Below, piece after piece: positions 6,879 through 23,031 of a stretch of DNA of 32,000 bases. The notes under the pieces are model-generated. The model made no database searches, was not told the DNA's origin, and saw only the letters and a program-made list of their open reading frames with translations. This DNA comes from Desulfuromonas soudanensis (GTDB lineage Bacteria; Desulfobacterota; Desulfuromonadia; Desulfuromonadales; WTL), in the NCBI RefSeq assembly GCF_001278055.1, contig NZ_CP010802.1, positions 1,681,504 to 1,713,503 on the forward strand. The letters run 5' to 3'. The translations under genes and the position numbers were made by a program. How positions within the stretch are numbered: position 1 is the first letter of the stretch; each line of letters opens with the position of its first letter.

Positions 6879-6983
6879 GGCGAACATTCCTGTTAATTCC
6901 AAAACCCTGGATTGGTGGACGACCGGCATTGTTCTTTGGTGTTTTCAAAAAGGAAGGTACGACCTCTCTCGACCTCCCACTCT

Positions 6984-7639: not shown

Positions 7640-7657
7640 GGCGTCTCCTTGGTTGGG

Positions 7658-9329: not shown

Positions 9330-9365
9330 CCAGTAAAGCGATGGAATCAGGAAAGGAGCCTCACA

Positions 9366-9581: not shown

Positions 9582-9600
9582 CTGGTGCAGGAAATGCAGG

Positions 9601-9687
9601 GGGCAAGGTTTCAGGGGTCGGGCAAGGTTTCAGGGGTCGTGTCTCCATTCTTCATATAATGAAGAATGGAGACACGACCCCGTTAAC
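9601..9687 (+). repeat. Composite repeat H1: 19-bp tandem duplication, 23-bp perfect hairpin, GTTAAC
   Basis: GGGCAAGGTTTCAGGGGTC x2 (9601-9638). GGGGTCGTGTCTCCATTCTTCAT-ATA-ATGAAGAATGGAGACACGACCCC (9633-9681). GTTAAC (9682-9687). Homologous copy at 14737-14819. Confidence 0.9.
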
Positions 9688-9917
9688 TGAGCCTATTTAC
9701 TGCACGATTCCAAGCAGGAGTTGGTCGATCGTATTTACCTTGGAATCGAAGAGTTCAACAGAGAGCCGGTCATATTTCGCTGGCGATACAAAATAGACGA
9801 ACTGGCCAGCGCATAGTTGATATGTTATTAGCAGAACGGACTACTAGTGTCCCGTTTGGTTAGTCCATTCAGATAATTCTGAGGCATTTTGGTCGTTGCT
9901 TTTTCCCGCCCCCTTCG

Positions 9918-10439
9918 TCATTCCTTTCTTTTCACAGTGATCATTCTCGAATATTCCCTTGTCGCCCGGGAATTATTCGCTACGTCACGAGCCATCCTAA
10001 GACCTTCGGATATCGCGAGAAGCATCGAAACAGAACCGGCCGAAGCAACCGCGAGGGAAAACATGAAGAAGAACATTTCCCTCGGGTCGAAGATCAGTTT
10101 GCCCCATTGGTAGAAATGGACCAGACCCATGATCTCGGTGATGGTCGTGAATGCGGCCAAGAAGGCGAATGCCCCCGAGAGATAGAGGGTGACGGGGTAG
10201 GCTGCTTCGTCTCGAGCGTATTCCGGATCCGGACCGAAGCTCAGTCTGAAGCGGATCTTTTCATCCCGTTCCATCTCTTTTTGAATGCCCTCGCATATCG
10301 ATATTTCAGCTGCTGTTCGTTGCTTGAAGGCAGCTTCCGCCGCTGCGACTCTCTGCACCTTGGCAAAGACTACGCCGCACTTCGGACATGCCACAGCCCC
10401 GGTCTCTTGAAAATCAAAACCACACTTCGGACACCTCAC
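9918..10439 (-). CDS. Zinc-ribbon membrane protein, function unknown
   Basis: N-terminal MRCPKCGFDFQETGAVACPKCG (CxxC...CxxC). The C-terminal half has about 3 hydrophobic helices. Confidence 0.55.
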   Translation of the reverse strand: MRCPKCGFDFQETGAVACPKCGVVFAKVQRVAAAEAAFKQRTAAEISICEGIQKEMERDEKIRFRLSFGPDPEYARDEAAYPVTLYLSGAFAFLAAFTTITEIMGLVHFYQWGKLIFDPREMFFFMFSLAVASAGSVSMLLAISEGLRMARDVANNSRATREYSRMITVKRKE

Positions 10440-10560
10440 CGGTCATCCTCCCTTTGAATTTATAGTCACGTGCAGGGTCAAATCTTGAATCTCAAATTTT
10501 TGGATATTTTCAGGTTATTCGGTGGGCAAAGTTGATTTTCAAGATGTGACCTCGGCCGGA

Positions 10561-11577
10561 TTATACTAACGGGTCGTGACGGATATTTGTAATATTCCCG
10601 AACTTCCGGAACTGTTTTAGTACATTCTCGACTTGTCGGATCCGGCTTTCGAGATCGCCTCGCAGGACGAAATACGGGATACGCCGCTCTGCCAGGTCCC
10701 CGATGATCTGCTTCTGAAACCACTGCCGTTTCTGATCCCCGCTCCGGTCCCAAGTTTCGGCATACGGAATGTCAGTGTCACAAAGAAAATACAGGTCGTA
10801 GCGTTTTTCAGCTTCCCGGGCAAGTATGGTCAACATCGGACCGGCGCAACCATGATAATCCTTGGCAAACACATAGGTCGTTATCGGGGACGTGTCGCAG
10901 AAAAGATACCGACGACTCAATGCCACCAGCGCATCTTCGCGCCGGTTGTGCTCAGGAGCGATTTCTTCAAACTGCTCCAGCGTAATGCGCCGATCCACAT
11001 GGTTTTGTAACCAATATTCGCCCCCGTATTCAGGCATCCATTGCGTGTCGTAACGCTCGGCCAGGGCGCTGGTCAGGGTCGTCTTTCCCGTCGATGGTGC
11101 CCCCAGGAAACAGGCCTTGACGATAAGGTCCGCATATACCGTGTCGGAAAGAAAAGCCCGGCCAGAATAATAATCGGCGCGCAGTTGCGTTCCACTAATC
11201 GGAACCTTTCGCCGCGGTTCATCCACCCTCCGGTCGATGGCATTGAGGGCACGGCTGACATGGTCGCCGTAAAATTCGCTGGAGTAAAAGTGGGTGATCG
11301 GAAGACCGTTCAGCTTCTTGAGGATATAGCTTTCCTGGACGCGCATGATTTCCGGCGTGTCACCGTAGCCGTCGGGACCATCCCAGGCTTCAATGACCGT
11401 CACGGCTGGATACAGTGACTTTATCCAGTCGGCCCGCACCGGCAACGGAACCTCGATCAGGTCCGAATCATAAATCATCACGATCAGTTCATCGACCTCC
11501 GCCAGCGCGGTTTCGATGACCATCTGGTGTCCCTTGTGGAAGGGTGCATATTTCCCCAGCGTCAATCCACGCCGCAT
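10561..11577 (-). CDS. nadR: NadR-type NMN adenylyltransferase / ribosylnicotinamide kinase (no N-terminal HTH)
   Basis: GKYAPFHKGHQ (HxGH nucleotidyltransferase motif) at the N-terminus. GAPSTGKTTL Walker A in the C-terminal kinase half. Lies directly downstream of pnuC. Confidence 0.8.
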   Translation of the reverse strand: MRRGLTLGKYAPFHKGHQMVIETALAEVDELIVMIYDSDLIEVPLPVRADWIKSLYPAVTVIEAWDGPDGYGDTPEIMRVQESYILKKLNGLPITHFYSSEFYGDHVSRALNAIDRRVDEPRRKVPISGTQLRADYYSGRAFLSDTVYADLIVKACFLGAPSTGKTTLTSALAERYDTQWMPEYGGEYWLQNHVDRRITLEQFEEIAPEHNRREDALVALSRRYLFCDTSPITTYVFAKDYHGCAGPMLTILAREAEKRYDLYFLCDTDIPYAETWDRSGDQKRQWFQKQIIGDLAERRIPYFVLRGDLESRIRQVENVLKQFRKFGNITNIRHDPLV

Positions 11578-11588
11578 ACAGGTCCCTT

Positions 11589-12281
11589 TTAGGCGGCAAT
11601 CGGTGGACTGTCAGCGCTTGCGCCGACATGCCAGCGCCAGTACCCAAACATTGCATTCACCAGAAAGAGCGACCACATTAAAACCATCAGGTCTCCTGAA
11701 TTTCCTCCGGCCTGGAAGCGCAAAAACCACATGATGACCGATAGGACATTCAACAGGATATAGAGCAGCCACTGTTCCTTATAGCGCCACATCATCAGAA
11801 ATGTCGCGAGGATGGATAGCACATTGGTGCTCGCATCGACATACGGCGTATTCTGGCCCGGATTCAAGGCCAGCAACTTGCCCAGCCCGAACATGCTCAA
11901 CATGCAGATGACTGCGATAACGGTCCGACCCTTCCCCGACAGACTCCGCATCCGGACAGCATGATTGTCCGAGGGATGCCGAACCCACATCAGATATCCG
12001 ATGACTCCAGTAGGCAAAAAGAACAGGATGTTGAGATACACCTCACCAAAAAGGCCGTTTGTGTAAGCGAGGATTGCGTAAGAGATACTGTTGTACAAAC
12101 CGAACAGATACCCTTCGCGACGACCGATAGCGATCAGGCCAACGCAGAGAATCCCCGAGAAGAAAATACTCGCGTCGAAAATGGTTTCAGAAAGAAATCC
12201 GCACAGAACAGCCCCGACCAAACCAAGGGCAGTCAGCCAAGAAATATCGATGAGATCATATGGTGATTTTTGTTTTGCCAT
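11589..12281 (-). CDS. pnuC: Nicotinamide riboside transporter PnuC
   Basis: 230 aa, about 7 TM, Trp-rich helices (...MMWRYKEQWLLYILLNVLSVIMWFLRF...) typical of PnuC. Classical pnuC-nadR synteny. Confidence 0.8.
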   Translation of the reverse strand: MAKQKSPYDLIDISWLTALGLVGAVLCGFLSETIFDASIFFSGILCVGLIAIGRREGYLFGLYNSISYAILAYTNGLFGEVYLNILFFLPTGVIGYLMWVRHPSDNHAVRMRSLSGKGRTVIAVICMLSMFGLGKLLALNPGQNTPYVDASTNVLSILATFLMMWRYKEQWLLYILLNVLSVIMWFLRFQAGGNSGDLMVLMWSLFLVNAMFGYWRWHVGASADSPPIAA

Positions 12282-12305
12282 TATTGACTCTATACGAGGA
12301 AATGG

Positions 12306-12360
12306 GTACCGGGTCTACACATTGACAGGCATCTTCGCTGTCAATGTGCAGACCCGGCAC
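12306..12360 (-). promoter_or_regulatory. Long leader hairpin 25 nt upstream of the pnuC start
   Basis: 23-bp stem with a 9-nt loop. The two non-Watson-Crick positions are G-U on the minus-strand transcript but A-C on the plus strand. Confidence 0.5.
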
Positions 12361-12703
12361 TGATGCTATTCTAGCTGGCCTGGTCTGACCCCAGGCACCG
12401 ACCCTTTGTTGCGAGCTGGATGTCTAAGCGCTAGCGTCATCCCCCTGTGCTTCGCCCGAAGCATAGCCGAGTCAACCGTCCGATGCCACTGGAATTTGCC
12501 TCAATAAAGATCATCATCCGCTGACCAAGTGGGTTTTGGTCTTCTCTTTGCTGCATTGGGTCCGTTGGGACATCGCGGGCTCGCGTCTTTCCGCGGGTGC
12601 GAGAAGCATTTTGTGTCAATTCGACTTTAAGTAAAGATTAATTGTTGGTGGAAAATGCGGCTGATTGGCCGAAAAAAGATTAATATCGGGTGGTTACTCC
12701 CGC

Positions 12704-12719
12704 TGGCATCATCATTGCT
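12704..12719 (+). promoter_or_regulatory. Sigma-54 (-24/-12) promoter
   Basis: TGGCAT-CATCA-TTGCT has exact GG-N10-GC spacing, about 97 nt upstream of the ATG at 12816. AAAGATTAAT direct repeats at 12633 and 12675 lie upstream. Confidence 0.65.
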
Positions 12720-12815
12720 CAGGAAAAAAATAGCGGTACTTGATTGATGGGATCAAGAATTGGCCGCTATTGGGAAATGGGATGAAGTCAGGCCCTTCAA
12801 CCACAGGAGGACAAC

Positions 12816-13622
12816 ATGTCAGAACCATCGCGCAGGGAGTTTTTGAAGACGGGCGTCGGCGTCATCGCCGGGGCCGCATTGGTCGGCGGCGTCGCCTTGA
12901 CCGGAGCCAAAGAGGCCGAAGCCGCAGTCACCCAACCTTTCGGATACATTCCGCTGGACGTGGAGACGACCCGGCAACTCGGCTACGACGGCTACAAGGG
13001 GATCATTATCGACGGCGTCAAACACGCCCATTGCGGCTTCGCCTCCTTCAACGCCATCACCAGTCAACTGAAGGCCCTCGATCCCTATGGCCCCTACGCC
13101 AATATTCCGCCGGGGATGATGGACTGGGCGGCCAGCGGCGTCGCCGGTTTTGCCAGCTTTTGCGGGGCGCTTAACGGCGCCTGCGCGGCGGTGGGCCTGA
13201 TCTGCACCCCGGCGGATGCCAATGGCTTCATCAGCGACCTGTTGACCTGGTACACCGAGACCCTGCTGCCGAGCAACATCGTGGCCCCGACCGGGATTTT
13301 GCCGCAAAGTCTCGCCAGGACCACCCTCTGCCACAACTCCGTCACCAATTGGTGTCTCGCTTCCGGCATGGCCAGCGGCTCGCCGGAGCGCTCCGAGCGT
13401 TGCGCTCGGCTGGCCGGCGACGTCGCTGCCAAGACCGTCGAGATGCTGAACAACGGCCGCCTCGGCTTGCCGACGCCGGCCAGCAAGACCGTCTGCGTCT
13501 CCTGTCACTATACCGGGACGGATTACGCCGCCGGCCAGTTTACCCGCGGCAACGAAGACTGCACGGTCTGTCATACCGGCATCAAGAAGATTCCGGCGGG
13601 CGGGCATCGGGGCAAGTCGTAA
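12816..13622 (+). CDS. Tat-exported C_GCAxxG_C_C-family redox protein with a C-terminal diheme c module (split-Soret cytochrome c-like)
   Basis: SRREFLKTG twin-arginine signal. HCGFASFNAI...FCGALNGACAAVGLI matches the C_GCAxxG_C_C pattern. Two CxxCH motifs (CVSCH, CTVCH) near the C-terminus. GGAGG RBS. Confidence 0.7.
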   Translation: MSEPSRREFLKTGVGVIAGAALVGGVALTGAKEAEAAVTQPFGYIPLDVETTRQLGYDGYKGIIIDGVKHAHCGFASFNAITSQLKALDPYGPYANIPPGMMDWAASGVAGFASFCGALNGACAAVGLICTPADANGFISDLLTWYTETLLPSNIVAPTGILPQSLARTTLCHNSVTNWCLASGMASGSPERSERCARLAGDVAAKTVEMLNNGRLGLPTPASKTVCVSCHYTGTDYAAGQFTRGNEDCTVCHTGIKKIPAGGHRGKS

Positions 13623-13654
13623 GCGCACGCCAGAACAGATCCCGTTGTGACAGC

Positions 13655-13695
13655 AAAGTCCGGCCGGAGGGTTCCTCCAGCCGGACTTTATTTTG
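13655..13695 (+). terminator. Rho-independent terminator
   Basis: AAAGTCCGGCCGGAGG-GTT-CCTCCAGCCGGACTTT long stem followed by ATTTTG. Confidence 0.75.
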
Positions 13696-13808
13696 CGATT
13701 TATCGTGTCTCAGCGCGCCGGGTTGGCGGCGATATCGTTGCTGATAGCCGTCAGGTCCTGTTCACAAGACGCGAAGCTTGGCGAGATCCTCGTAGCCGAA
13801 TCTTCCGA

Positions 13809-13977
13809 ATTGCAAAATAATTGGGGCATGGGTAAGGCTTCCAGGTTGATAAGTCCTTGTTCCAAGTTGTCTCGATTCGTACAACTCCGACAAGTACCAA
13901 ATCCCCCGATGATAGTCCATGCGCGTTTTTTCCCGTTGGCAGGAAGTTATGCATCGCCTGAGTTTATTGCAAAATTA
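13809..13977 (+). repeat. Repeat family A/B, copy 2 (A-tail 13809-13820, B2 13838-13869, A2 13875-13977), circularly permuted relative to copy 1
   Basis: The order here is tail-of-A, spacer, B, A. At 7679-7829 it is A, spacer, B. This fits a unit of about 156 bp that can occur in tandem. Confidence 0.8.
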
Positions 13978-14140
13978 TAAATGGGGAAGTGTCCGTCATT
14001 TTCTCCGGGACAGAAGTATTTGTCGCTCATTAGTGGAAAATAGATCTGCTCCGGTTTTGGTGTCCGGTTTTTGTCCGAGGACATCGAACTCACCAAAAGC
14101 AATCCAGTAACTGACCTCACCAGACTCGAGCGTCAAATCG

Positions 14141-14587
14141 TCACTCCGGAATCACCGGCTCGACGAGCGTCGCAAGCTGGGCGAGGGATTCCTGCCATCC
14201 GAGATAGCACATCTCCACCGGAATCGCTTCCGGGAGCCCCTCCTGCACGATGTTCACCTCGGTTCCGCACGACACGGGTTTCAAGGTCACGGTCGTCTCC
14301 ATCTCGCCGGGGAGGTTCGGATCGTCGAAGCTGTCCGTGTAGCGGATGCGCTCGTTGGGCAACAGTTCACGGTACACGCCGCCGAAGGAATGCCCCTGGC
14401 CGGACGAGAAGTTGGTGAATGACATTTTGTAGGTTCCGCCGACTTTGGCATCCAGGTGGTGCACCCTGCAGGTGAATCCGTAAGGCGGAAGCCACTTGGC
14501 CATGGAGTCGGCATCGAGAAAGGCACGGTAGACGCGTTCCGGGCTGGCCCGGAGGACGCGGTGAAGTCGGACGGTTCCTTTGGGCAT
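14141..14587 (-). CDS. SRPBCC/Aha1-domain protein (paralog of 6372..6878)
   Basis: MPKGTVRLHRVLRASPERVYRAFLDADSMAKWLPPYGF... I trimmed the track ORF to the Met at 14587, which is preceded by AAAGGAGG. Confidence 0.75.
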   Translation of the reverse strand: MPKGTVRLHRVLRASPERVYRAFLDADSMAKWLPPYGFTCRVHHLDAKVGGTYKMSFTNFSSGQGHSFGGVYRELLPNERIRYTDSFDDPNLPGEMETTVTLKPVSCGTEVNIVQEGLPEAIPVEMCYLGWQESLAQLATLVEPVIPE

Positions 14588-14736
14588 GGTCAAACCTCCT
14601 TTACCTTGCAGCGGGGAGGGGGTCGGGTGTGGGTTGTTCACCCCATTCACCAACATTTTACCCCATACCGGCGTCCATTGCTGGCAGTCCCGCTTCCCGA
14701 TTGCGTCCTCGGGGCCCAAGAGCTGCCTGAGTGCAT

Positions 14737-14819
14737 GGGTCGTCTCAGGGGGCGGGTCGTCTCAGGGGGCGGGTCTCCATTCTTCATATAGTGAAGAATG
14801 GAGACACGGCCCCGTTAAC
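14737..14819 (+). repeat. Composite repeat H2: 17-bp tandem duplication, hairpin, GTTAAC
   Basis: GGGTCGTCTCAGGGGGC x2 (14737-14770). GTCTCCATTCTTCA-TATAG-TGAAGAATGGAGAC core hairpin (14773-14805). GTTAAC (14814-14819). Ends 9 nt from the NERD gene stop. Confidence 0.9.
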
Positions 14820-14828
14820 GACCCTGAT

Positions 14829-15623
14829 TCAGGAATATGGCACTACATTTCGACATTCAGGGAATTTGATACATACCCAGTATTTCTTTCCAATATCATC
14901 ACCGGACTTCTTCTCTCTTATTTTCAATTCGCTACCGCATGCCTTGCAGGTATTAGCGGCTATAACTGGATTTGCAGTATTATATTTGGGTGTCGCAGAC
15001 ATATCTTTAGTATTATTATGTTTTTCATTATTAATAGTCTTTACATGCTTTATATGGTCTCTATTTGTTTTGATTGAAGGAGTCAGTCTGCCCGCCTCAA
15101 TCTTGTTAACTATCTCTCTCACGTTTTCAACAGGCAAAACAAGCCTAGTCTTTGATTTTATAAATTTAATATAACCGATACCATGAGTAACGTTTTCAGG
15201 CATATTTGTTTTAAATGTACTTTCACCAACAAAAACAATCAGTGAATGTATTTGGTTCTCACTTAAGCCCAGGAGTGATTGCAAGGTTTTCACATGCTTG
15301 TAATTTTGACGCAATGGATTTTGAAATTTACTCTTATATTTAAAAATTTGTTGTGTCCATGTACTCTGATTGGGACCACCAAAAATCCATCCCTTCATAT
15401 TTTTGGTTTCAACAACAAAAATGCCGTATTTTGAAACAATGACATGATCAATTTGAGTAGTTCCGTCCTCCGTTGGCATCGTGACGTTCTTTATAAGATG
15501 ATACTCATTTTTATCAAGCATCAACTTTGCTGCAACATTTACAATAAACTCACCCATCACACCCTTGAACCAGGGTGATTTCATTAAAACAGCAATAATA
15601 ATAATTAGTATAAAGAATATCAT
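14829..15623 (-). CDS. NERD-domain protein with an N-terminal TM helix and a C-terminal topoisomerase-type C4 zinc ribbon
   Basis: GEFIVNVAAKLMLDKNEYHLIKNVTMPTEDGTTQIDHVIVSKYGIFVVETKNMKGWI is the NERD core. CKACGSEL...WVCIKFPECRN is the zinc ribbon. The gene is markedly AT-rich. Confidence 0.8.
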   Translation of the reverse strand: MIFFILIIIIAVLMKSPWFKGVMGEFIVNVAAKLMLDKNEYHLIKNVTMPTEDGTTQIDHVIVSKYGIFVVETKNMKGWIFGGPNQSTWTQQIFKYKSKFQNPLRQNYKHVKTLQSLLGLSENQIHSLIVFVGESTFKTNMPENVTHGIGYIKFIKSKTRLVLPVENVREIVNKIEAGRLTPSIKTNRDHIKHVKTINNEKHNNTKDMSATPKYNTANPVIAANTCKACGSELKIREKKSGDDIGKKYWVCIKFPECRNVVPYS

Positions 15624-15702
15624 CCTTGAGCCTTTCTATTTTAACATCGGCCTGAGGACGGATTTCTAAGCGATCAAGCAACAACGTCCGCCGGGACATT
15701 CC

Positions 15703-16251
15703 CTAGAGACGGGCGATGATGTCGCCGGCGGTCACTACCTCGGCAAAGAGTGAGCCGAGGGCCGCAAGGTAGGCGGTCTGGACCTGTTCGGCGGCGACCC
15801 TTTGTTCGGCGAAGGCGAGGTCGCGGGTGGCACAGGCGTCGTGGGCGAGGGTGCACGAGAGGCCGAGGTCGAAGGCGGCTCGCACCGTCGTGTCGACGCA
15901 CATGTGGGTCATCATCCCCGCGATGACCAGGGCCGTTATCCCGTTTTCCTCCAAGTAGGGAAGGAGGGGGGTGTCGCGGAAACTGTTGGGGAAGTGCTTG
16001 GTAAAGATCGGCTCACCCTCTGTCGGGGCGACGCAGGGATGGATTTCGGCTCCGGGGGTCTCCGGGAGAAAGAAGGTTGCGCCGGGCCTCGTATTGAGAT
16101 GCTGAATGTGGATGATCGGCAGATCCCTGGCGCGGAAGGCGCCGAGGAGCTCCTCGGCCTTCCCTCCAGCCGCGAGGCTGTCGCTGAGCTCCATCGCCCC
16201 GCCGGGAAAGTAGTCGTTCTGGATGTCGATGATCAACAGTGCCTGGGCCAC
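15703..16251 (-). CDS. Isochorismatase-family cysteine hydrolase (possible nicotinamidase-type)
   Basis: ALLIIDIQNDYF..., ...TKHFPNSF..., ...ALVIAGMMTHMCVDTT (Asp-Lys-Cys triad pattern). I prefer the GTG at 16251 (GGAGG 5 nt upstream) to the track start at 16365. Confidence 0.7.
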   Translation of the reverse strand: MAQALLIIDIQNDYFPGGAMELSDSLAAGGKAEELLGAFRARDLPIIHIQHLNTRPGATFFLPETPGAEIHPCVAPTEGEPIFTKHFPNSFRDTPLLPYLEENGITALVIAGMMTHMCVDTTVRAAFDLGLSCTLAHDACATRDLAFAEQRVAAEQVQTAYLAALGSLFAEVVTAGDIIARL

Positions 16252-16419
16252 GGGAACCTCCGGAATAGAAAATTTGGGTTGAGCGGGGTCTAAAAAGGGA
16301 AGCTCCTTGCCTTGGGAAAGGTTCTCTCTTGAGGGCTCATCTGTTGGTGAGGACGTATTAAACAATTAAACAACGTGGGCACGTCCCTGGGCACCTTTAC
16401 CTAATCATCAACCTTCCGT

Positions 16420-17043
16420 TCAAAACAGGTACCGAACGCCCAAAAGGTAGACCTGGCCAACAAAATTATCCTCAACGACTTCAGCAGAAGAGGATCTGGA
16501 GAATTCCATTCCAATAGAGGTCCGTTCATAACTGACCGTTCCCAGCAGATGCTCTCCGAGACGAACCGAGGTGCCGAGCTGTAATTTCAGAAGTGCTCCA
16601 GAGTCAATATCATCGAGAATCCGCCCGACAACGGGGGCCTGAACATTGTCAAATTCGATCCGGCCGACACCAATCCCGAGCCCCAACCAGGGTGTTACGG
16701 TATGGAGGATTTCATATTCAAAACAGGCATTGAGGACAAGATTTTTCATTGTCACTTCGCCGCTACCATCAACCGAAGACGAATTCAGGAGCACCTGACC
16801 GACATCATTTTTGTACTGTATCGCTTCGAGATCGAGCCGGAACCATCCGAAGTCGTAACCACCGTTGACGGCTAGTGCCATTCCGTCGTCATGCTGGATA
16901 GTTGTCTGGGTAGAGACAGAGAGGTCGTCTATCCGACTTACCCCGCCTGCGACGCCGGCGTACCATCCTTTAGCCATGGCCGCGCAGGGCGCTAACGACA
17001 ACAGTGCAAGGGTCAGCACAAGGGTAAATCTGATTTTTTTCAT
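16420..17043 (-). CDS. Outer-membrane beta-barrel protein (OmpW/OmpA-like small porin fold)
   Basis: Signal peptide MKKIRFTLVLTLALLSLAPCAAMA, alternating beta-strand pattern, C-terminal ...LLGVRYLF. Confidence 0.7.
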   Translation of the reverse strand: MKKIRFTLVLTLALLSLAPCAAMAKGWYAGVAGGVSRIDDLSVSTQTTIQHDDGMALAVNGGYDFGWFRLDLEAIQYKNDVGQVLLNSSSVDGSGEVTMKNLVLNACFEYEILHTVTPWLGLGIGVGRIEFDNVQAPVVGRILDDIDSGALLKLQLGTSVRLGEHLLGTVSYERTSIGMEFSRSSSAEVVEDNFVGQVYLLGVRYLF

Positions 17044-17193
17044 AGGTCTCTCCAGAATATTTAGGGAAAGGCAACAGGGTCAGGCAACAGGCTTCCAAAT
17101 TGCCAAGTTTAAGGGCCAGTAAAAGGAACGCTCAGGGGGCAAGCTTGACTAATGGGGAATTGCCTCCCCCACCATGTTCCGAGTACTTTTCAT

Positions 17194-17529
17194 CTATCCG
17201 GAAATAGGCCCAACAATCAGCAGAATCCGCACCTTCATCTCCCCACTGAACTCCTCCAAATCGTCAGCCCCGATCATCTTGTGCCGAACCATCAGGCACA
17301 GGTACATTTCCATTTTCGACCGGGAATGACCGTCGAGGCAGTCGACCAGAATCCGGGCCACGCCTTTGATTTTCTTTTCCGCTTCCCAGAACTGCTCGGT
17401 CGGCGTTTTCTTCCCCTCGGCGAACAGGGCGGCGATCAGCTGGTTCTGCCTGGCGAGATAGCGTTCCCGCCACTCCGGGACGCGCTTGCGGAAGGTCTTC
17501 CAGTCGGATTCCAGGGGCTTGTTTATCAT
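17194..17529 (-). CDS. Hypothetical protein
   Basis: 111-aa ORF with plausible codon usage. I recognise no family. Confidence 0.4.
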   Translation of the reverse strand: MINKPLESDWKTFRKRVPEWRERYLARQNQLIAALFAEGKKTPTEQFWEAEKKIKGVARILVDCLDGHSRSKMEMYLCLMVRHKMIGADDLEEFSGEMKVRILLIVGPISG

Positions 17530-17573
17530 CGTTCCCTCAGCTTCTATGCTCCTTTTTCAACTGCCTTGGAAAA

Positions 17574-17858
17574 CTAGGAATGCTTCTCGTAATTTTCCGG
17601 TTTCTCATGAACCGCACTTGAACTCGGTACCGATTTGACATAAAGAGTCTCCGGTGCAATATCCAGATCGTTCGGCCAGCAGACCGTGTCGCAGGCTACA
17701 TAGGCCCGCTCGAACAGGGCCTGATCCTTCAGTTGGCGAAAAACTCCCTTGTCCAGATAGGGTCGAACATCAAACAGACGTACCTCTCCCGTACTGAACT
17801 CGATTTCCAGATGATAATTTTCCCGAGGTATGACACGGACAACTGTGATTGTCGGCAT
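17574..17858 (-). CDS. DUF2442-domain protein
   Basis: MPTITVVRVIPRENYHLEIEFSTGEVRLFDVRPYL...VCWPNDLDIAPETLY is the DUF2442 pattern. AGGAGGGAG RBS. I trimmed the track ORF. Confidence 0.7.
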   Translation of the reverse strand: MPTITVVRVIPRENYHLEIEFSTGEVRLFDVRPYLDKGVFRQLKDQALFERAYVACDTVCWPNDLDIAPETLYVKSVPSSSAVHEKPENYEKHS

Positions 17859-17926
17859 AACCGAAACTCCCTCCTGGTGCACAAATCCTCCAGCAATTCT
17901 TGAATGAAAAAGGGACGGCTGATTTC

Positions 17927-18025
17927 TCAACCTGTATCAAGGGTCATCCCTGCCGTGTAGTCGGCAATCCTCTCCATCCACTCCAGAATGTCCTGGATTC
18001 TGAATCGCCAGTCTCTAGACGGCAT
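17927..18025 (-). pseudogene. HepT (DUF86/HEPN) toxin, N-terminal 32 codons only
   Basis: MPSRDWRFRIQDILEWMERIADYTAGMTLDTG* starts at an ATG overlapping the MNT stop (the usual MNT-HepT coupling). It ends long before the HEPN Rx4-6H motif. Confidence 0.6.
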
Positions 18026-18305
18026 GCACCGATTCCCGAAGAATTTTCTCACGCAGTTGTGGTTTGAGCGCATCCGGAGTGACCAGGTCGACCGACTGGC
18101 CGAGGGTTTTTTCGAGGTAGTTTTTCAACCGAACGAATTCGAACAGGCCACCAACCCGCTCGAATTCGACCAGGATGTCGATATCGCTGTCTGGCCGTTC
18201 TTCGCCCCGGACGACCGAACCGAACAGGGAAAGGGAACGGACACCGAAGGCGTCAAGTTCTTCTTTGTGTTCGCTGAGTCTTTGAATGATTTGTGCTCGG
18301 TTCAT
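18015..18305 (-). CDS. MNT-type nucleotidyltransferase antitoxin
   Basis: ...LSLFGSVVRGEERPDSDIDILVEF... (GS-x10-DxD polymerase-beta-type NTase motif), 96 aa. Confidence 0.8.
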   Translation of the reverse strand: MNRAQIIQRLSEHKEELDAFGVRSLSLFGSVVRGEERPDSDIDILVEFERVGGLFEFVRLKNYLEKTLGQSVDLVTPDALKPQLREKILRESVHAV

Positions 18306-18359
18306 AGGACACTCCGATGAGTGGGAACTGGCTTTCTTTATATCATCTCATTTTCCGGC

Positions 18360-18401
18360 CCCAAAGCACAAAAGCGAAAGGCCTCCCGGGGGAGGCCTTT
18401 C
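18360..18401 (-). terminator. Intrinsic terminator immediately after the displaced nrdJ 3' end
   Basis: GAAAGGCCTCCC / GGGAGGCCTTTC stem, followed on the minus strand by GCUUUUGUGCUUU. Confidence 0.7.
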
Positions 18402-18413
18402 GTGATTTTCAAC

Positions 18414-18443
18414 CTACGCGCACTCACTATACCCGCAGGCGTG
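18414..18443 (-). repeat. Displaced copy of the last 9 codons plus stop of nrdJ (direct repeat of 20803-20832)
   Basis: CACGCCTGCGGGTATAGTGAGTGCGCGTAG encodes HACGYSECA*, identical to the end of NrdJ. 26 of 30 nt are identical and all four differences are synonymous third positions. Confidence 0.85.
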
Positions 18444-18497
18444 GCGAGGACACTGATGCTAATCCCAAATAGCACCATCTCCCTGGGCATGCCCCCT

Positions 18498-19556
18498 TTA
18501 ACTTTCAAGCCAGGCATCGGTAACGGCAAGAAATTTTTTTATAAAATCATCACGGCCACATAAACGTGGTTCCGTAAGCAACTCATATGCACGATTGAGG
18601 GCCTCTCCGATCTCTTCACGATGCAGTTCGGCACAAAAGACAGAGAAGAAGTCTGAAAGATCGACCACCGCTAAGTCAAACGACAACCTATTGACAAATT
18701 TAATTAACTTGGTTGCCGGATGTAAATCTGAATCACTACGGACATTTGCAGCAAAAATTACGTATTTATGTAGTTTGCCATCAGATACTTTTGATCCAAA
18801 ATCAGTAAGTCTGTTTTTCCAGTCATTGCGGACAGTGACCTCATATGCAGCTATTAATTCATAATCCCTAAATTCTTCAATGTCACCTTTGGTCCCATCA
18901 AATTTATCTGATGCATGCGGATGGTGGGTTACAACTCGATGCCCAAAACGTCTCCTATGTATCTCGATGAAAGCCGCAACCAGAAACTGTTGTATGTGCC
19001 CCTCAGATGGAATGGCTATTAACTTCTCACAAAGACTAAGGCTTCGCGCATAGGATAAGTAACTTGCCGGGAGAGGTGGCAGAGCTTGTTGAATAACTCT
19101 TGAAGATTGCAATCGCCAAGCAATGTGGTCGACTAATTCTTTCCGTTGGCTTGGAGTGGTAGCCTTTAATCTTATTAGAAAATCTGAAAACCTTGAGTCT
19201 TTGGTAAGGTCAAATTGCCGCACAGCACCTTTCCAACCAAGATTTTCGCCGAATGCAGTTATGTTCTTATGGAATGTTATATTCCGGAAAGTCAACTCGC
19301 TTGCCAGTAACTTGTCGCCGTATCTGCCGCGCACACCCGTGGGTACTGATTTGAAATCCCATGTTTTGTCTACTATTGAATATACTGCAAGAAAGGCGCA
19401 AGCGAGCCTTAAACTTCCACCTTGTTGGTCTACATTATTGTCAAAAATATTTCTTATTGATATTGGTGCAGGCGAACCTAATGATTCACCATGAGAAATT
19501 CTGTCAATAAGACTAATTAATAAATGAACTGATTTTTCTATATTTTCATTTCTCAT
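18498..19556 (-). CDS. Putative type II restriction endonuclease (partner of the C5 methyltransferase)
   Basis: 352-aa AT-rich ORF whose start overlaps the methyltransferase stop by 4 nt. I could not identify a catalytic motif, so the call rests on context. Confidence 0.5.
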   Translation of the reverse strand: MRNENIEKSVHLLISLIDRISHGESLGSPAPISIRNIFDNNVDQQGGSLRLACAFLAVYSIVDKTWDFKSVPTGVRGRYGDKLLASELTFRNITFHKNITAFGENLGWKGAVRQFDLTKDSRFSDFLIRLKATTPSQRKELVDHIAWRLQSSRVIQQALPPLPASYLSYARSLSLCEKLIAIPSEGHIQQFLVAAFIEIHRRRFGHRVVTHHPHASDKFDGTKGDIEEFRDYELIAAYEVTVRNDWKNRLTDFGSKVSDGKLHKYVIFAANVRSDSDLHPATKLIKFVNRLSFDLAVVDLSDFFSVFCAELHREEIGEALNRAYELLTEPRLCGRDDFIKKFLAVTDAWLES

Positions 19557-20608
19557 AGAATCATCTCATCCTGTATAGCGTTAACACCTTTTATTTTTTC
19601 GATAAATTCACCAGTATTTGAGTGCCCATTCAATTGCGCGATTAAAGCCTTCCCTACGGCGAAAGCAAGCTCAGGTGGGACCGCATCACCGACTTGTTTA
19701 TATTGTGCCGACCGCTTACCTGAAAAATTTAAGTCTTGCGGGAAAGTTTGAATTAATGCGCACTCTTCTACACTGAGTCGTCTAGCCCCAGGAACAGCAC
19801 CTTCCCATGGTGCGCCGCCTGCTCGAAGGTGTGCGTGATATGCTGGCGCAATATTCGCAGTGTCGAGCCAATGAGTTTTATATCCACCTGACGAAGCTAA
19901 AATTGTGTGGCATGGCCCGTCAGGGTCGATTGGGCGACCGCCGCCATTATATATATGACCTGCATAAGGGCTAAGGCGCAGATCAGGGTATTTTGCATAT
20001 TTAACTGGGCAATTAGGTTGGTCACCAATCGGGTTGTCACCCAGTATGTCTAAAGCTTTTATGTGTAAATGTTTCGTTTCTGGCCCATGGGAAGGCATCG
20101 GGAATTTTAATTGACGATTACGAGCTCCCAGCACGATGAGACGTTTTCTTTTTTGCGGTACGCCGTAATCAGCTGAATTTAACACTGCCCAATTGAGCTG
20201 ATAGCCACAATCCGCCAGCCTTACTAAGACGTCATCAAAATATGGGCGAGCTTTTTTGAATATCAGACCTGGGACATTTTCCATAAGAAAAGCTTCTGGT
20301 TGAACCTCTTCTAGGCACCGGATAAACTCAGGTATCATGTCACGCTTATCGGCCTTCCCCTTCTGCAAACCTCCAATTGAAAATGGCTGGCATGGCGGTC
20401 CGCCAACAACAATATCGACCTTACCACGAAATGGAGAAAAAGATATTCGTCTAACATCTTCATTGAAGTGAATAGCGTCAGAGTCATGAGAAGTATAGGT
20501 CGTCATTGCATCGCGATTAATTTCTACGTTTGCGAGTACCTTTAAGCCAGCACGTCGAAGGCCAAGAGAGAGGCCTCCTGGTCCGGAAAATAAGTCTATT
20601 ATATGCAT
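19553..20608 (-). CDS. DNA (cytosine-5)-methyltransferase
   Basis: Motif I DLFSGPGG, motif IV GGPPCQPFS, motif VI ENVPG, motif VIII QKRKR, motif X GDAVPP. Confidence 0.95.
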   Translation of the reverse strand: MHIIDLFSGPGGLSLGLRRAGLKVLANVEINRDAMTTYTSHDSDAIHFNEDVRRISFSPFRGKVDIVVGGPPCQPFSIGGLQKGKADKRDMIPEFIRCLEEVQPEAFLMENVPGLIFKKARPYFDDVLVRLADCGYQLNWAVLNSADYGVPQKRKRLIVLGARNRQLKFPMPSHGPETKHLHIKALDILGDNPIGDQPNCPVKYAKYPDLRLSPYAGHIYNGGGRPIDPDGPCHTILASSGGYKTHWLDTANIAPAYHAHLRAGGAPWEGAVPGARRLSVEECALIQTFPQDLNFSGKRSAQYKQVGDAVPPELAFAVGKALIAQLNGHSNTGEFIEKIKGVNAIQDEMIL

Positions 20609-20802
20609 TTTAGTACCCCAAAACCGATTGTTGCTTTCAAAAGTTTGTGCTGATCGCGAGTTTTGACAGATCTCTTAGTTCAATGTAAATACGAAGAAAG
20701 GGGCAGACAACTTTCCGCCGCCTGACCCTTTCTGATTTATTGATCAGCCTACCATTTTAACGCCGCTGTTGTCATCCATTGCGTTAAGGGCTTCAGCAAT
20801 GC

Positions 20803-23031
20803 CTAGGCGCACTCACTATACCCACACGCATGACAGACGCAGCACCCGCCTTCATGCTCCACCGGCCCGCCGCATTCGGGGCAGGCGCCGCCGGTCTGGC
20901 TGTGGTCGGGGATCATGTCTTCGTGGATCATGTGCATCTGGATCGCCTTGGCGACGGCGTCGGCGCAGGAGGTGACGCGGTTGTCGCCGAAGCCGGCGGG
21001 TTTGTGGCAGGTGATGCCGATGAGCTGCTTGACGGCCTGCCTGGCCTGGACGCCGCTGCGCCAGGCGAGGGAGACGAGGCGGCCGATCGCTTCGCACTGG
21101 CTGGCGGCGCAACCGCCGGCCTTGCCCATGGTGGTGAAGAGTTCGAAGAGGCCTTCGTTGTCTTCGTTGATGGTGACGTAGAGGGGGCCGCAGCCGGTCT
21201 CCATCTGGTAGGTCGAACCACGGAGGGCCCGGGGGCGGTCCCGTTTGCGCCCTCCCTTGTGGGATTCCATGGGGACGGAGGCCTCGGGGGACTTCTCTTC
21301 CTTCTTGCCGACGGAGAGGACCTGCATGTCGCGGCTTCCGTCGCGGTAGATCGTCACCCCCTTGCACCCCTGGCTGTAGGCGAGGCGGTAGACGTTGGCG
21401 ACGTCGTCGCGGGTGGCGCTGTGGCCGAAGTTGACGGTCTTGGAGACGGCATTGTCGGTGTGGCGCTGGAAGGCGGCCTGCATCCGGATATGTTCTTCGG
21501 GGGAGATGTCGTGGGCGGTGACGAAGATGTTGCGGATGTCTTCGGGGATCTGCTCGATCCCTTCGAGGGTTCCGTGCTCGGCGATGATCTTCATCAGTTC
21601 GGGGGAATAGAAGCCGCGCTCCTTGGCGACCTTCTCGAAGAGGGGGTTGACCTCGACGAGGACGTCGTTGTCGAGAACCTGGCGCACGTAGGAGACGGCG
21701 AAGAGGGGCTCGATCCCGCTGGAGGAGTTGGCGATGATGGAGATGGTGCCGGTGGGGGCAATGGTGGTGCTGGTGGCGTTGCGCACCGGCTTCCCCCCCT
21801 TGACGTCGAAGGTGCTCCCCTTGAAGTTGGGGAAGGGGGCGCGCTCGACGGCGAGTTCGCGGGAGAAGGCCCGGGCCTCTTCGGTGATGAACTTCATGAC
21901 CTTTTCGCCGAGATCGACGGCCTGCTCGCTGCGGTAGGAGAGGCCGAGGAGGATGAGCAGGTCGGCCCATCCCATGACGCCGAGCCCGATCTTGCGGTTG
22001 GCGCGGGTCATCTCGTCGATCTGCGGCAGAGGGTAGTTGTTGACCTCGATGACGTTGTCGAGGAAGCGGGCGGCCAGACGTACGGTGCTGCGCAGCTTGT
22101 CCCAGTCGACCTTGCCGGCGCCGGTGATCATTTTGGCCAGGTTGATCGAGCCGAGGTTGCACGACTCGTAGGGGAGAAGGGGCTGCTCGCCGCAGGGGTT
22201 GGTCGCTTCGAACTCGCCGATCTGCGGGGTCGGATTGTCGCGGTTGAGGCGGTCGAGGAAGACGATCCCCGGCTCGCCGTTGGTCCAGGCCAGCTCGACG
22301 ATGTGCTCGAAGACCTTGCGGGCGGCGAGCTTCTTCAGCGGCTCGCCGCTGCGGGGGTTGATGATGTCGTACTCGCCGTCGGCTTCCACCGCCTGCATGA
22401 AAGCCTCGGTGATGCCGACGGAGAGGTTGAAGTTGGTCAGCACGTTCTGGTCGCGCTTGGCCATGATGAAATCCATGATGTCGGGATGGTCGACGCGCAG
22501 GATCCCCATGTTGGCGCCGCGGCGGGTGCCGCCCTGCTTGATCGTCTCGGTGGCGGCGTCGAAGACCTTCATGAAGGAGAGGGGGCCGCTCGAGACGCCG
22601 GAGGTGGAGCGAACCTCGTCGTTTGCCGGACGGATACGCGAAAAGGAGAAGCCGGTGCCGCCGCCGCTCTTGTGAATCAGCGCCGTCTGCTTGATCGCTT
22701 CGAAAATACTCTCCATCGAATCGCCGACGGGGAGGACGAAGCAGGCCGAGAGCTGGCCGAGCTCGCGACCGGCGTTCATCAGGGTCGGCGAGTTGGGGAG
22801 AAACTCGAGGGAGGTCATCATCGCGTAGAAGTCGTTCTCGAGGGCAACGGGGTCGACTTTGGTGCCGAGGCGGGTCTCGGCTTCGGCGATGGCGCGGGCA
22901 ACCCGGTGAAACATGTCGGCGGCGGTTTCCTGAACCTTCCCCTTGCTGTCGCGCTTGAGATACCGGCGTTCGAGTACGGTCAGGGCGTTTTTGGAGAGGG
23001 GGAGGGTGGCGGTTTCGGCCGTCTGCTTCAT
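20803..23031 (-). CDS. nrdJ: Adenosylcobalamin-dependent (class II) ribonucleotide reductase
   Basis: 742 aa. N-terminal ...LTVLERRYLKRD...; NPCGEQPLLPYESCNLGS active-site loop; C-terminal Cys-rich tail CPECG...CCVCHACGYSECA. Confidence 0.9.
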   Translation of the reverse strand: MKQTAETATLPLSKNALTVLERRYLKRDSKGKVQETAADMFHRVARAIAEAETRLGTKVDPVALENDFYAMMTSLEFLPNSPTLMNAGRELGQLSACFVLPVGDSMESIFEAIKQTALIHKSGGGTGFSFSRIRPANDEVRSTSGVSSGPLSFMKVFDAATETIKQGGTRRGANMGILRVDHPDIMDFIMAKRDQNVLTNFNLSVGITEAFMQAVEADGEYDIINPRSGEPLKKLAARKVFEHIVELAWTNGEPGIVFLDRLNRDNPTPQIGEFEATNPCGEQPLLPYESCNLGSINLAKMITGAGKVDWDKLRSTVRLAARFLDNVIEVNNYPLPQIDEMTRANRKIGLGVMGWADLLILLGLSYRSEQAVDLGEKVMKFITEEARAFSRELAVERAPFPNFKGSTFDVKGGKPVRNATSTTIAPTGTISIIANSSSGIEPLFAVSYVRQVLDNDVLVEVNPLFEKVAKERGFYSPELMKIIAEHGTLEGIEQIPEDIRNIFVTAHDISPEEHIRMQAAFQRHTDNAVSKTVNFGHSATRDDVANVYRLAYSQGCKGVTIYRDGSRDMQVLSVGKKEEKSPEASVPMESHKGGRKRDRPRALRGSTYQMETGCGPLYVTINEDNEGLFELFTTMGKAGGCAASQCEAIGRLVSLAWRSGVQARQAVKQLIGITCHKPAGFGDNRVTSCADAVAKAIQMHMIHEDMIPDHSQTGGACPECGGPVEHEGGCCVCHACGYSECA

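What the first reader, a model, noticed from the sequence alone, without database searches (positions are those of the whole stretch)
18414..20832. AT-rich R-M gene pair inserted into the last codons of nrdJ, bounded by 30-bp direct repeats that differ only at synonymous sites
The last 27 nt plus stop of nrdJ (20803-20832, encoding HACGYSECA*) recur at 18414-18443. Identity is 26 of 30. All four differences are third-codon positions that keep the same peptide. The distal copy uses GC-ending codons like the rest of nrdJ, and a strong intrinsic terminator follows it directly (18360-18401). The copy fused to nrdJ uses CAT and TGT, like the AT-rich insert. The simplest reading is that a ~2.4-kb cassette entered the nrdJ 3' end. 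The cassette carries only a C5 methyltransferase and its presumed endonuclease, plus its own version of the nrdJ terminus. The insertion preserved the reading frame and orphaned the native end and terminator. No integrase or transposase is present. R-M units flanked by long target duplications have, to my recollection, been reported in other bacteria. I do not know of one that targets an essential nrd gene and carries a synonymous replacement end.
Basis: partly seen in the sequence, partly recalled or inferred. Interest (0 to 1): 0.7.

Follow-up and report, generated by a model that had tools for sequence, protein, structure and literature searches.

The report
Restriction-modification pair beside duplicated nrdJ end
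A foreign two-gene restriction-modification unit sits directly after the essential nrdJ gene of Desulfuromonas soudanensis, in a spot where sister strains carry other defence genes, and the 30-base repeat around it is most likely a recombination scar rather than the mark of a new nrdJ-targeting mobile element.

Summary
A 30/31-nt direct repeat (18413-18443 and 20802-20832, 27/31 identical) brackets a 2.39-kb, 44% GC segment. Both copies encode HACGYSECA*, and all four differences are synonymous.

The segment carries a C5 methyltransferase and a Type II endonuclease. The endonuclease matches PADLOC REase_II at E 1e-100 and has an EcoT38I-like fold.

The distal copy, its terminator and a promoter-like block are collinear with the nrdJ ends of other Desulfuromonadales. 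That supports an insertion.

Six conspecific-level metagenome contigs (95-97% identical) change the reading:
- The position right after the nrdJ stop is a variable defence hotspot. It holds a DpnII-type R-M pair, SIR2-HerA or a STAND NTPase instead.
- None of these alternatives shows a second CGYSEC-type nrdJ end in the sequence available.
- The "AT-type" codons CAT...TGT of the nrdJ-fused copy also occur in strains with other cargo, so they did not arrive with this cassette.

No integrase, transposase, terminal inverted repeat or attC site is present. The 70-80% identical relatives of this R-M pair are integron cassettes elsewhere.

My best reading is a 3'-end displacement scar. It would arise from homology-anchored recombination with DNA from a related strain. 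This belongs to the known class "R-M insertion with long target duplication". Interest is modest.

The parts
20803..23031 (-). nrdJ, a class II (B12-dependent) ribonucleotide reductase of 742 aa. It ends ...CCVCHACGYSECA*.
   Evidence: Pfam Ribonuc_red_lgN, lgC and TSCPD. Translation. It is 98% identical to P0121 and named D. soudanensis NrdJ in its cluster. GC3 is 0.90.
20802..20832 (-). Proximal repeat copy B: CAT GCG TGT GGG TAT AGT GAG TGC GCC TAG G. It is the functional end of nrdJ.
   Evidence: Its first three codons are shared with conspecific nrdJ alleles that carry other cargo.
20609..20801 (-). 193-nt leader of the insert, with a terminator-like hairpin at 20724-20704. All conspecific homology stops at 20801.
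   Evidence: hairpin. (homology breakpoint). No similarity to other M-R loci or to relatives.
19553..20608 (-). M: C5 cytosine DNA methyltransferase, 351 aa.
   Evidence: PF00145 at E 3e-67. TIGR00675 dcm. PADLOC MTase_II at 4e-95. GC3 is 0.36.
18498..19556 (-). R: Type II restriction endonuclease, 352 aa. It overlaps M by 4 nt.
   Evidence: PADLOC REase_II PDLC03410 at E 1.1e-100, full length. AlphaFold model with pLDDT 89.8. Best PDB fold match is EcoT38I (7edb), E 3.5e-10. 441 homologues were found, and in every locus inspected that reaches upstream of R (about 30) a C5 methyltransferase gene lies directly upstream. hmmscan against Pfam found nothing.
18444..18497 (-). 54-nt spacer between the R stop codon and the distal repeat. 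This is the right end of the insert.
   Evidence: It lacks the about 70-nt attC that follows R in integron-borne homologues.
18413..18443 (-). Distal, orphan repeat copy A: CAC GCC TGC GGG TAT AGT GAG TGC GCG TAG G. An in-frame stop lies 6 codons upstream, so it is not part of a long reading frame.
   Evidence: It aligns in register with the nrdJ termini of L005, L016, L007, L008 and L012.
18365..18402 (-). Intrinsic terminator: 12-bp stem, 8 GC pairs, then a T tract.
   Evidence: Homologous terminators follow nrdJ directly in L005 (85% over 67 nt) and L016.
18322..18364 (-). Conserved block after the terminator (AATGAGATGATATAAAG, resembling an extended -10 element). It is the last part of the strain-specific segment. 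Homology to conspecific L116 resumes at 18321.
   Evidence: Alignment A1. Breakpoint. The promoter reading is my inference from the sequence.
18015..18305 (-). Right-flank gene: MNT-type nucleotidyltransferase. Conspecific L116 shares it at 96% identity.
   Evidence: Pfam NTP_transf_2 and Polbeta..

Best explanation
Shown: the 2.39-kb AT-rich segment is a horizontally acquired Type II restriction-modification pair, a C5 methyltransferase plus an EcoT38I/SacI-like endonuclease. It occupies a strain-variable defence hotspot immediately 3' of nrdJ in Desulfuromonas soudanensis.

Shown: the 30/31-nt direct repeat is real and consists of two different natural alleles of the nrdJ terminus.

Inferred mechanism: the repeat is a 3'-end displacement scar left by homology-anchored, one-sided recombination.
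1. DNA arrived from a related strain in which the R-M pair lay directly after nrdJ.
2. It paired homologously inside the 3' part of the recipient's nrdJ.
3. Its far end was joined illegitimately about 30-32 nt before the recipient's stop codon.
4. The incoming nrdJ end now completes the gene.
5. The recipient's own last nine codons, terminator and downstream promoter-like block were pushed 2.4 kb downstream as an orphan.

On this reading the unit is not self-mobile and does not target nrdJ. nrdJ is simply the conserved anchor on one side of the hotspot.

A side effect is that recombination between the two copies would remove the R-M pair and leave an intact nrdJ.
For: Gene identities.

Insertion status:
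- Nothing in 80 related species or 6 conspecific contigs matches 18446-20800.
- Copy A, the terminator and the promoter-like block are collinear with the nrdJ ends of L005, L016 and L007.

Hotspot:
- Contigs 95-97% identical across nrdJ carry other cargo at the same position. These are a D12 methyltransferase with a DpnII-family endonuclease (L112, L114, L116), SIR2 with HerA (L115), and an NB-ARC/TPR STAND NTPase (L113).
- All homology breaks at window 20801.
- None of these contigs has a second CGYSEC-type nrdJ end.
- Variable or absent repeats fit random illegitimate junctions better than a site-specific enzyme.

The two copies are real coding alleles: all four differences are synonymous, p about 0.008-0.03 under neutral drift of the orphan. 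The last 90 nt of nrdJ carries about three times the segregating-site density of most of the gene.

A donor tract may reach upstream of the repeat. WTL-unique synonymous variants lie at -49, -46 and -34, plus GCC at -4, with none in the preceding 310 nt. By my Poisson estimate from the counts this clustering has p about 0.01. A crossover at the repeat edge would not produce it.

No integrase, transposase, terminal inverted repeat or attC site is present.

Precedent: displacement of gene 3' ends, leaving orphans downstream, has been attributed to homology-facilitated illegitimate recombination at T6SS and rhs loci (PMC5361080).
Against: - No donor-type allele (nrdJ followed by this M-R pair, without copy A) and no conspecific empty site were found. 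The event is therefore reconstructed, not observed.
- Microhomology at the right junction cannot be assessed without the donor sequence.
- The cluster of WTL-unique variants is a post hoc observation on seven sequences.
- The perfect 17-nt core between the two copies would equally suit a reciprocal crossover within the repeat.
- DNA uptake or competence in Desulfuromonas was not examined.
- Homology-facilitated illegitimate recombination is rare where it has been measured (PMC5361080).
Confidence: 0.45

Rival explanations
1. Kobayashi-type "insertion with long target duplication". The R-M unit entered an ancestral nrdJ end and created two initially identical copies, for example through break repair. 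Later the nrdJ-fused copy was overwritten by ordinary homologous exchange of nrdJ alleles within the population. The orphan copy stayed frozen as a fossil of the allele present at insertion.
For: - The structure fits the published class: R and M genes only, under 20 kb, direct repeats, no mobility genes (PMC2853133).
- B-left (CAT GCG TGT) equals the common conspecific allele.
- The orphan copy differs from every conspecific allele.
- Synonymous-only differences follow naturally if both copies are real alleles.
Against: - It needs two events.
- The overwriting tract would have to end inside the last 20 nt or so of nrdJ.
- The remaining GCC/GCG difference needs a further change.
- The mechanism of the primary duplication is itself unknown.
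- The repeat length (30-31 nt) sits at or below that paper's >30 bp criterion.
Confidence: 0.25
2. Site-specific integration, as the first reader proposed in CIME-like form. The unit is an integrase-less integrative module. Its attachment site mimics the last codons of nrdJ, and a tyrosine or serine recombinase encoded elsewhere moves it in trans. The repeats are attL and attR.
For: - Clean direct repeats lie exactly at a gene's 3' end and the reading frame is preserved.
- The perfect 17-nt core could act as a crossover region.
- The element supplies its own terminator-like hairpin after the new stop codon.
- From my own knowledge, not tested here: many ICEs and IMEs integrate into the 3' ends of conserved genes, and integrase-less derivatives (CIMEs) are known.
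Against: - No recombinase is encoded in the 32-kb window.
- No second CGYSEC-type nrdJ end was found next to the other cargos at this site, nor within 6 kb downstream of nrdJ in 80 relatives.
- About 30 other loci with this M-R family show no nrdJ linkage.
- The supposedly element-borne codons CAT...TGT occur in strains that lack the element.
- WTL-unique variants extend upstream of the repeat.
Confidence: 0.12
3. Campbell-type single crossover. A circular molecule carrying one copy of the nrdJ end plus the M-R pair, excised from a donor that already had repeats, recombined with the host nrdJ end inside the 17-nt identical core. Both present copies would then be chimeras.
For: - The three left-hand differences and the one right-hand difference flank a perfect 17-nt core.
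- B-left matches the conspecific allele, and A-right (GCG TAG) matches L112, L114, L115 and L116.
- This fits the proposed release and reinvasion life cycle of R-M units (PMC2853133).
Against: - 17 nt of identity is below the length usually needed for efficient RecA recombination (my own knowledge).
- It presupposes an earlier repeat-flanked donor, which moves the question of origin back one step.
- It does not explain the WTL-unique variants upstream of the repeat.
Confidence: 0.1
4. Integron-integrase-mediated insertion of a gene cassette at a secondary site.
For: - Homologues of this M-R pair (about 70-80% aa identity in R) are canonical integron cassettes. They have a GTTAGC 5' boundary and an about 70-nt attC, and one lies next to intI (TIGR02249, 488 bits).
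- IntI homologues lie just downstream of nrdJ in two related species, L029 and L021.
Against: - The window copy has neither the conserved cassette leader nor the attC.
- A crude attC scan of the window, which did recover sites in positive-control loci, gave only noise.
- The junctions are not at G|TT on both sides.
- IntI recombination does not make 30-nt duplications (established knowledge).
Confidence: 0.03

Closest known systems
R-M gene insertion with long target duplication (Nobusato/Kobayashi; Furuta et al. 2010, PMC2853133)
   Same: An R-M unit with no other mobility genes, under 20 kb, of lower GC than the host, and bracketed by imperfect direct repeats of host sequence. One published H. 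influenzae case has a 46-bp repeat that overlaps the 3' end of a gene by 15 bp.
   Different: - The repeat here is shorter, 30-31 nt, at the edge of that paper's >30 bp criterion.
- It lies almost entirely inside coding sequence.
- It is less alike (87% against mostly 93-100%).
- Population data show the two copies are distinct alleles.
- No same-species empty site was found.
C-terminal / 3'-end displacement at rhs, CDI and T6SS effector loci, attributed to homology-facilitated illegitimate recombination (PMC5361080, which cites Jackson 2009, Prudhomme 2002, and de Vries and Wackernagel 2002)
   Same: Incoming DNA is anchored by a conserved upstream gene. The old 3' end is pushed downstream and kept as an orphan. 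Different strains carry different modules at the same place. No recombinase is involved.
   Different: In those loci the displaced ends encode different toxin domains and immunity genes and can be selected for. Here the displaced piece is only 9 codons, encodes the same peptide as the new end, and has no evident function beyond carrying the old terminator.
ICE / IME / CIME elements integrated in the 3' end of conserved protein genes (recalled from my own knowledge, e.g. ICESt1 and CIMEs at fda in Streptococcus thermophilus; not checked here)
   Same: Direct repeats lie at a gene's 3' end, the element restores the coding end, and integrase-less derivatives can carry R-M genes.
   Different: No cognate integrase or autonomous relative was found. 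No second nrdJ end was found next to the other cargos at the site. The fused copy's codons are not element-specific.
Integron gene cassettes
   Same: Homologous M-R pairs are bona fide cassettes with attC sites, in one case adjacent to intI.
   Different: The window copy has lost, or never had, the attC and the cassette leader. There is no intI or attI in the window.
Defence-system hotspots flanked by core genes (general concept, from my own knowledge)
   Same: At one position between conserved genes, conspecific strains carry R-M, SIR2-HerA, a STAND NTPase and toxin-antitoxin genes. All are low in GC.
   Different: Nothing essential. The only unusual feature is the short duplicated end of the core gene in one allele.

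Membership tests
Type II restriction-modification system | A DNA methyltransferase gene | tested here: met
   PF00145 at 3e-67. TIGR00675. PADLOC MTase_II.
Type II restriction-modification system | An adjacent restriction endonuclease gene | tested here: met
   PADLOC REase_II at 1e-100, full length. The fold matches EcoT38I, E 3.5e-10. A C5 methyltransferase gene lies directly upstream of R in the roughly 30 loci inspected that reach upstream. hmmscan against Pfam was negative.
Type II restriction-modification system | Demonstrated cleavage and methylation specificity | not testable with these tools
   GAGCTC is not avoided in the window: 14 sites against 12 expected. The genome paper does not discuss this system.
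R-M insertion with long target duplication (Furuta 2010) | The insert contains both R and M homologues | tested here: met
R-M insertion with long target duplication (Furuta 2010) | The insert is under 20 kb and has no other mobile-element genes | tested here: met
   The insert is 2389 nt and holds only two genes. No integrase or transposase was found in the window ORFs tested. No terminal inverted repeats.
R-M insertion with long target duplication (Furuta 2010) | The target duplication is longer than 30 bp | tested here: inconclusive
   30 nt by the coding definition, 31 nt with the shared G after the stop codon, at 27/31 identity. This is exactly at the threshold quoted.
R-M insertion with long target duplication (Furuta 2010) | A compared genome of the same species shows an empty site with one copy of the repeat | tested here: inconclusive
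   Six conspecific-level contigs have one copy, but the site is filled by other cargo. Empty-site equivalents exist only in other species: L005, L016, L007.
Site-specific integrative element (ICE/IME/CIME type) | A recombinase gene in the element or a cognate one nearby | tested here: not met
   None in the 32-kb window. The rest of the genome could not be searched.
Site-specific integrative element (ICE/IME/CIME type) | The same attachment repeats bound other elements at the same site | tested here: not met
   The DpnII R-M, SIR2-HerA and STAND alleles lack a second CGYSEC-type nrdJ end. No flanking direct repeat was found around the L116 cassette. None of 80 related species has a second copy within 6 kb.
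Site-specific integrative element (ICE/IME/CIME type) | Excision to a circle and a restored junction | not testable with these tools
   This needs PCR or read-level analysis. Only the integrated form is present in the Logan assembly.
Integron gene cassette | An attC recombination site at the 3' end of the cassette | tested here: not met
   Homologues have it; the window copy does not. A crude attC scan of the window gave only noise.
Integron gene cassette | Location in an array next to intI/attI | tested here: not met
   No intI in the window. intI is present next to a homologue in L090, and near nrdJ in L029 and L021.
Homology-facilitated illegitimate recombination / 3'-end displacement | An orphaned 3' fragment of the anchor gene lies downstream of the insert | tested here: met
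   Copy A with the ancestral terminator block.
Homology-facilitated illegitimate recombination / 3'-end displacement | A donor-type tract in the anchor gene adjoins the insert | tested here: inconclusive
   Four WTL-unique synonymous variants lie in the last 50 nt and none in the preceding 310 nt. This is post hoc and rests on seven sequences.
Homology-facilitated illegitimate recombination / 3'-end displacement | An illegitimate junction at microhomology on the other side | not testable with these tools
   The donor sequence beyond the junction is unknown.

The most novel reading that the evidence does not exclude
The repeat marks a family of integrase-less defence cassettes that home to the last codons of nrdJ. 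Each would carry a synonymous copy of the gene end, which serves both as attachment site and as replacement terminus, and a recombinase encoded elsewhere would move them.
Probability: 0.08. Interest if true: 0.6.

Novelty: new member of a known kind. Interest (0 to 1): 0.3.

Why it matters
How R-M units come to be flanked by long direct repeats, without any transposase or integrase, has been unresolved since the phenomenon was described.

This case adds one useful datum. The two repeat copies are different natural alleles of the same gene end. That points to recombination between two genomes (end displacement) rather than staggered-cut repair within one genome.

It also documents a defence hotspot next to nrdJ in Desulfuromonas. 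Related strains carry at least four alternative cargos there.

Beyond that, the locus is an ordinary example of defence-gene turnover. It does not reveal a new kind of mobile element.

Tried and rejected
- Chance or assembly artefact: rejected.
- In situ divergence of an originally perfect duplication: unlikely, p about 0.008-0.03, and it would imply very large synonymous divergence.
- Transposon-like unit: no terminal inverted repeats at the insert ends.
- Integron cassette in the window: no attC and no cassette leader.
- tRNA or ncRNA target: no tRNA and no Rfam hit in the window.
- Phage origin of the nrdJ-end copy: the 17-mer is absent from viral contigs, and R has no phage match. One plasmid matches at 45% identity.
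- Search for the same M-R pair next to nrdJ elsewhere: about 30 loci, none.
- Direct repeats around other M-R loci: only L093, where the "repeats" are two attC sites.
- Direct repeats around the DpnII cassette in L116: none.
- Pfam identification of R: failed. PDB sequence search also failed. PADLOC and fold search resolved it.
- GAGCTC avoidance as a clue to specificity: none.
- L064, where nrdJ appeared truncated: only an N-masked stretch.
- The genome paper on D. soudanensis does not mention the locus.

Full report
OBSERVATION. The repeat is real. The repeat finder gives 18413-18443 and 20802-20832, 31 nt, 87% identical, spaced 2389 nt apart. Read on the minus strand, the copies are CAC GCC TGC GGG TAT AGT GAG TGC GCG TAG (distal, A) and CAT GCG TGT GGG TAT AGT GAG TGC GCC TAG (proximal, B). 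Both translate to HACGYSECA*. The four differences are all synonymous third-position changes. The 17-nt core is unique to these two sites, with 0.03 matches expected by chance. Copy B ends a 742-aa class II ribonucleotide reductase. Copy A is followed at once by a strong terminator hairpin. GC drops from about 0.66 in nrdJ to 0.31-0.50 in between. An independent Logan assembly of the same strain has the same structure.

GENES IN THE INSERT. M (19553-20608) is a C5 cytosine methyltransferase (PF00145, 3e-67; TIGR00675). R (18498-19556) gave no Pfam hit by hmmscan. It does match PADLOC model REase_II PDLC03410 over its full length at E 1e-100. A confident AlphaFold model (pLDDT 89.8) finds the EcoT38I restriction endonuclease as its only significant PDB neighbour (E 3.5e-10). 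R has 441 homologues, and in the roughly 30 loci inspected that reach upstream of R the same kind of methyltransferase gene precedes it. The "presumed endonuclease" is therefore confirmed as far as sequence and fold allow.

ORGANISM AND DISTANT RELATIVES. The window comes from Desulfuromonas soudanensis (R is DSOUD_1562; NrdJ is named).
- In 80 other Desulfuromonadales species, NrdJ is 76-84% identical.
- In these, nrdJ ends in the same C(H/R)xCG(Y/F)SECA* motif.
- None has a second copy of that end within 6 kb downstream.
- Nothing in them matches window 18446-20800.
- Window 18445-18337, which is copy A plus the terminator, aligns in register with the nrdJ end plus downstream sequence of L005 (81% over 109 nt), and of L016, L007, L012 and L008.
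- The alignment continues through the terminator into a shared AATGAGATGATATAAA block in L005 and L016.
- That similarity equals the nucleotide identity of nrdJ itself to L005, about 82%.

CONSPECIFIC CONTIGS CHANGE THE PICTURE. The 90% protein cluster of NrdJ led to six metagenome contigs that are 95-97% identical to the window across nrdJ and its upstream genes. In every one, homology to the window stops at 20801, two bases after the stop codon.

What follows the stop codon differs between contigs:

| Contigs | Cargo after nrdJ |
|---|---|
| L112, L114, L116 | D12 adenine methyltransferase plus DpnII-family endonuclease |
| L115 | SIR2 plus HerA, split by an IS |
| L113 | 818-aa NB-ARC/TPR STAND NTPase |
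| L117 | the L113/L115-type flank, then an unidentified gene |

All these cargos are low in GC, 0.40-0.54. Against L116, homology resumes at window 18321, just before the nucleotidyltransferase gene. The strain-specific segment is therefore 20800-18322 and includes copy A and the terminator.

None of these contigs has a second CGYSEC-type nrdJ end, and the DpnII cassette in L116 has no flanking direct repeat. The position is thus a general defence hotspot anchored by nrdJ, not a site used by one special element.

WHICH COPY IS "NATIVE"? The nrdJ-fused ends in the conspecifics read as follows:
- L112: CAT GCG TGT ... GCG
- L114 and L116: CAT GCT TGT ... GCG
- L115: CAT GCG TGT ... GCG
- L113 and L117: CAT GCC TGC ... 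GCT

The only site private to copy B is the final GCC. Copy A (CAC GCC TGC ... GCG) matches no conspecific allele, though it lies one or two changes from several.

Both copies are thus natural nrdJ alleles. That explains why they differ only synonymously. Drift of an orphan copy would give this pattern with p about 0.008-0.03.

The last 90 nt of nrdJ holds 15 segregating sites among the seven sequences. That is about three times the density in most of the gene.

WTL-private variants are absent from -361 to -50 but occur at -49, -46 and -34, upstream of the repeat, and at -4. By my Poisson estimate from those counts, this clustering has p about 0.01.

MOBILITY OF THE M-R FAMILY. Homologous pairs (about 70-80% aa identity in R) are classical integron cassettes in many metagenome contigs. 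They share a conserved G|TTAGC...GGAGGACCTAA leader and an about 70-nt attC that starts at the R stop codon. In L090 the pair lies next to an integron integrase (TIGR02249, 488 bits). The window copy has neither the leader nor the attC. A crude attC scan that recovered sites in control loci found nothing convincing in the window. There are no terminal inverted repeats. No integrase or transposase was found among the window ORFs tested. No tRNA or Rfam element is present.

MECHANISM. The data exclude a self-contained mobile element. They also argue against a site-specific enzyme acting at this hotspot:
- no second nrdJ end was found in the other alleles;
- no recombinase is encoded in the window;
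- the fused copy's codons are not element-specific;
- private variants extend beyond the repeat.

I favour homology-anchored, one-sided recombination (confidence 0.45). In this model, DNA from a related strain carrying the R-M pair directly after nrdJ paired within nrdJ. Its far end joined illegitimately 30-32 nt before the recipient's stop codon. This displaced the recipient's last codons, terminator and downstream promoter-like block.

This is the process proposed for 3'-end displacement and orphan formation at T6SS, rhs and CDI loci (PMC5361080). It would be a mechanistic reading of the descriptive class "R-M insertion with long target duplication" (PMC2853133).

The rivals are:
- a primary duplication followed by allelic overwriting of the fused copy (0.25);
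- trans-acting site-specific integration (0.12);
- a Campbell-type crossover in the 17-nt core (0.10);
- integron-integrase insertion (0.03).

They cannot be separated without a conspecific empty site or a donor allele.

VERDICT. This is a new member of a known kind. Its main value is as evidence that the flanking repeats of such R-M insertions can be two different alleles, which points to inter-genomic recombination.

Noticed in passing
L090 1679-5100; L093 1800-4110; L104, L106, L108-L111, L094: Homologues of this M-R pair are canonical integron gene cassettes. They have a conserved GTTAGC leader and an about 70-nt attC that starts at the R stop codon. In L090 the pair lies directly next to an integron integrase. 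In L108 and L110 the next gene is an EcoRV-family endonuclease.
   Followed up: yes
L029 8855-9841 (-); L021 4091-4996 (-): Two related Desulfuromonadales species have an integron-integrase homologue (50-56% identical to the L090 IntI) 0.7-2 kb downstream of nrdJ, convergent with it. The nrdJ neighbourhood may host chromosomal integrons in this order.
   Followed up: partly
window 7798-7840 and 13836-13869; L114 8074-8124; L116 3576-3626; L113 15198-15250 and 16444-16503: A conserved element of about 43 nt (CTTCCAAGTTGATAAGTCCTTGTTCTAAGTTGGNATCTTGGAAG, a hairpin with a 28-nt loop) recurs in intergenic positions between cargo genes of the hotspot, in both orientations. It has no Rfam match and its function is unknown.
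   Followed up: partly
window 17130-17539: This stretch is 90-92% identical in nucleotides to L008 5679-6089 and L005 10244-10460, well above nrdJ itself (82-84%). The 111-aa ORF on the minus strand is only 72-83% identical in protein and has no Pfam hit. It may be non-coding or recently exchanged.
   Followed up: partly
L113 16519-16643; L115 about 11089/11090; window 21801-21946: The end of contig L113 carries a 125-nt copy, 100% identical, of its own nrdJ (nt 1086-1210) next to the hairpin element. nrdJ in L115 lacks 142 nt starting at the same nucleotide, which shifts the frame. This may be a recurrent breakpoint, a long displaced nrdJ 3' part, or an assembly-graph artefact.
   Followed up: partly
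window about 5500-18400: The 13 kb downstream of the insert is of mixed, lower GC (0.44-0.60) and rich in accessory genes. These include ParE/Phd (6984-7639), an MNT nucleotidyltransferase (18015-18305), DUF2442 (17574-17930), and a NERD protein with a Top1 zinc ribbon in a 44% GC patch (14829-15623; weak PADLOC PglW hit). It also holds an isochorismatase and an ArsP-type permease. Conspecifics differ by presence or absence of DUF4160 and of the nucleotidyltransferase gene.
   Followed up: partly
window 20833-20892 (last 90 nt of nrdJ): Synonymous polymorphism among seven conspecific nrdJ sequences is about three times denser in the last 90 nt (15 sites) than in most of the gene. A second dense patch lies at about nt 1891-2070. 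The pattern is mosaic and suggests frequent recombination end points next to the hotspot.
   Followed up: partly
P0204 (Geoalkalibacter sp. NrdJ, 1118 aa): One related NrdJ carries intein domains (PF14528, PF14890). This is a reminder that nrdJ hosts other selfish elements, but it is unrelated to the 3'-end repeat.
   Followed up: no
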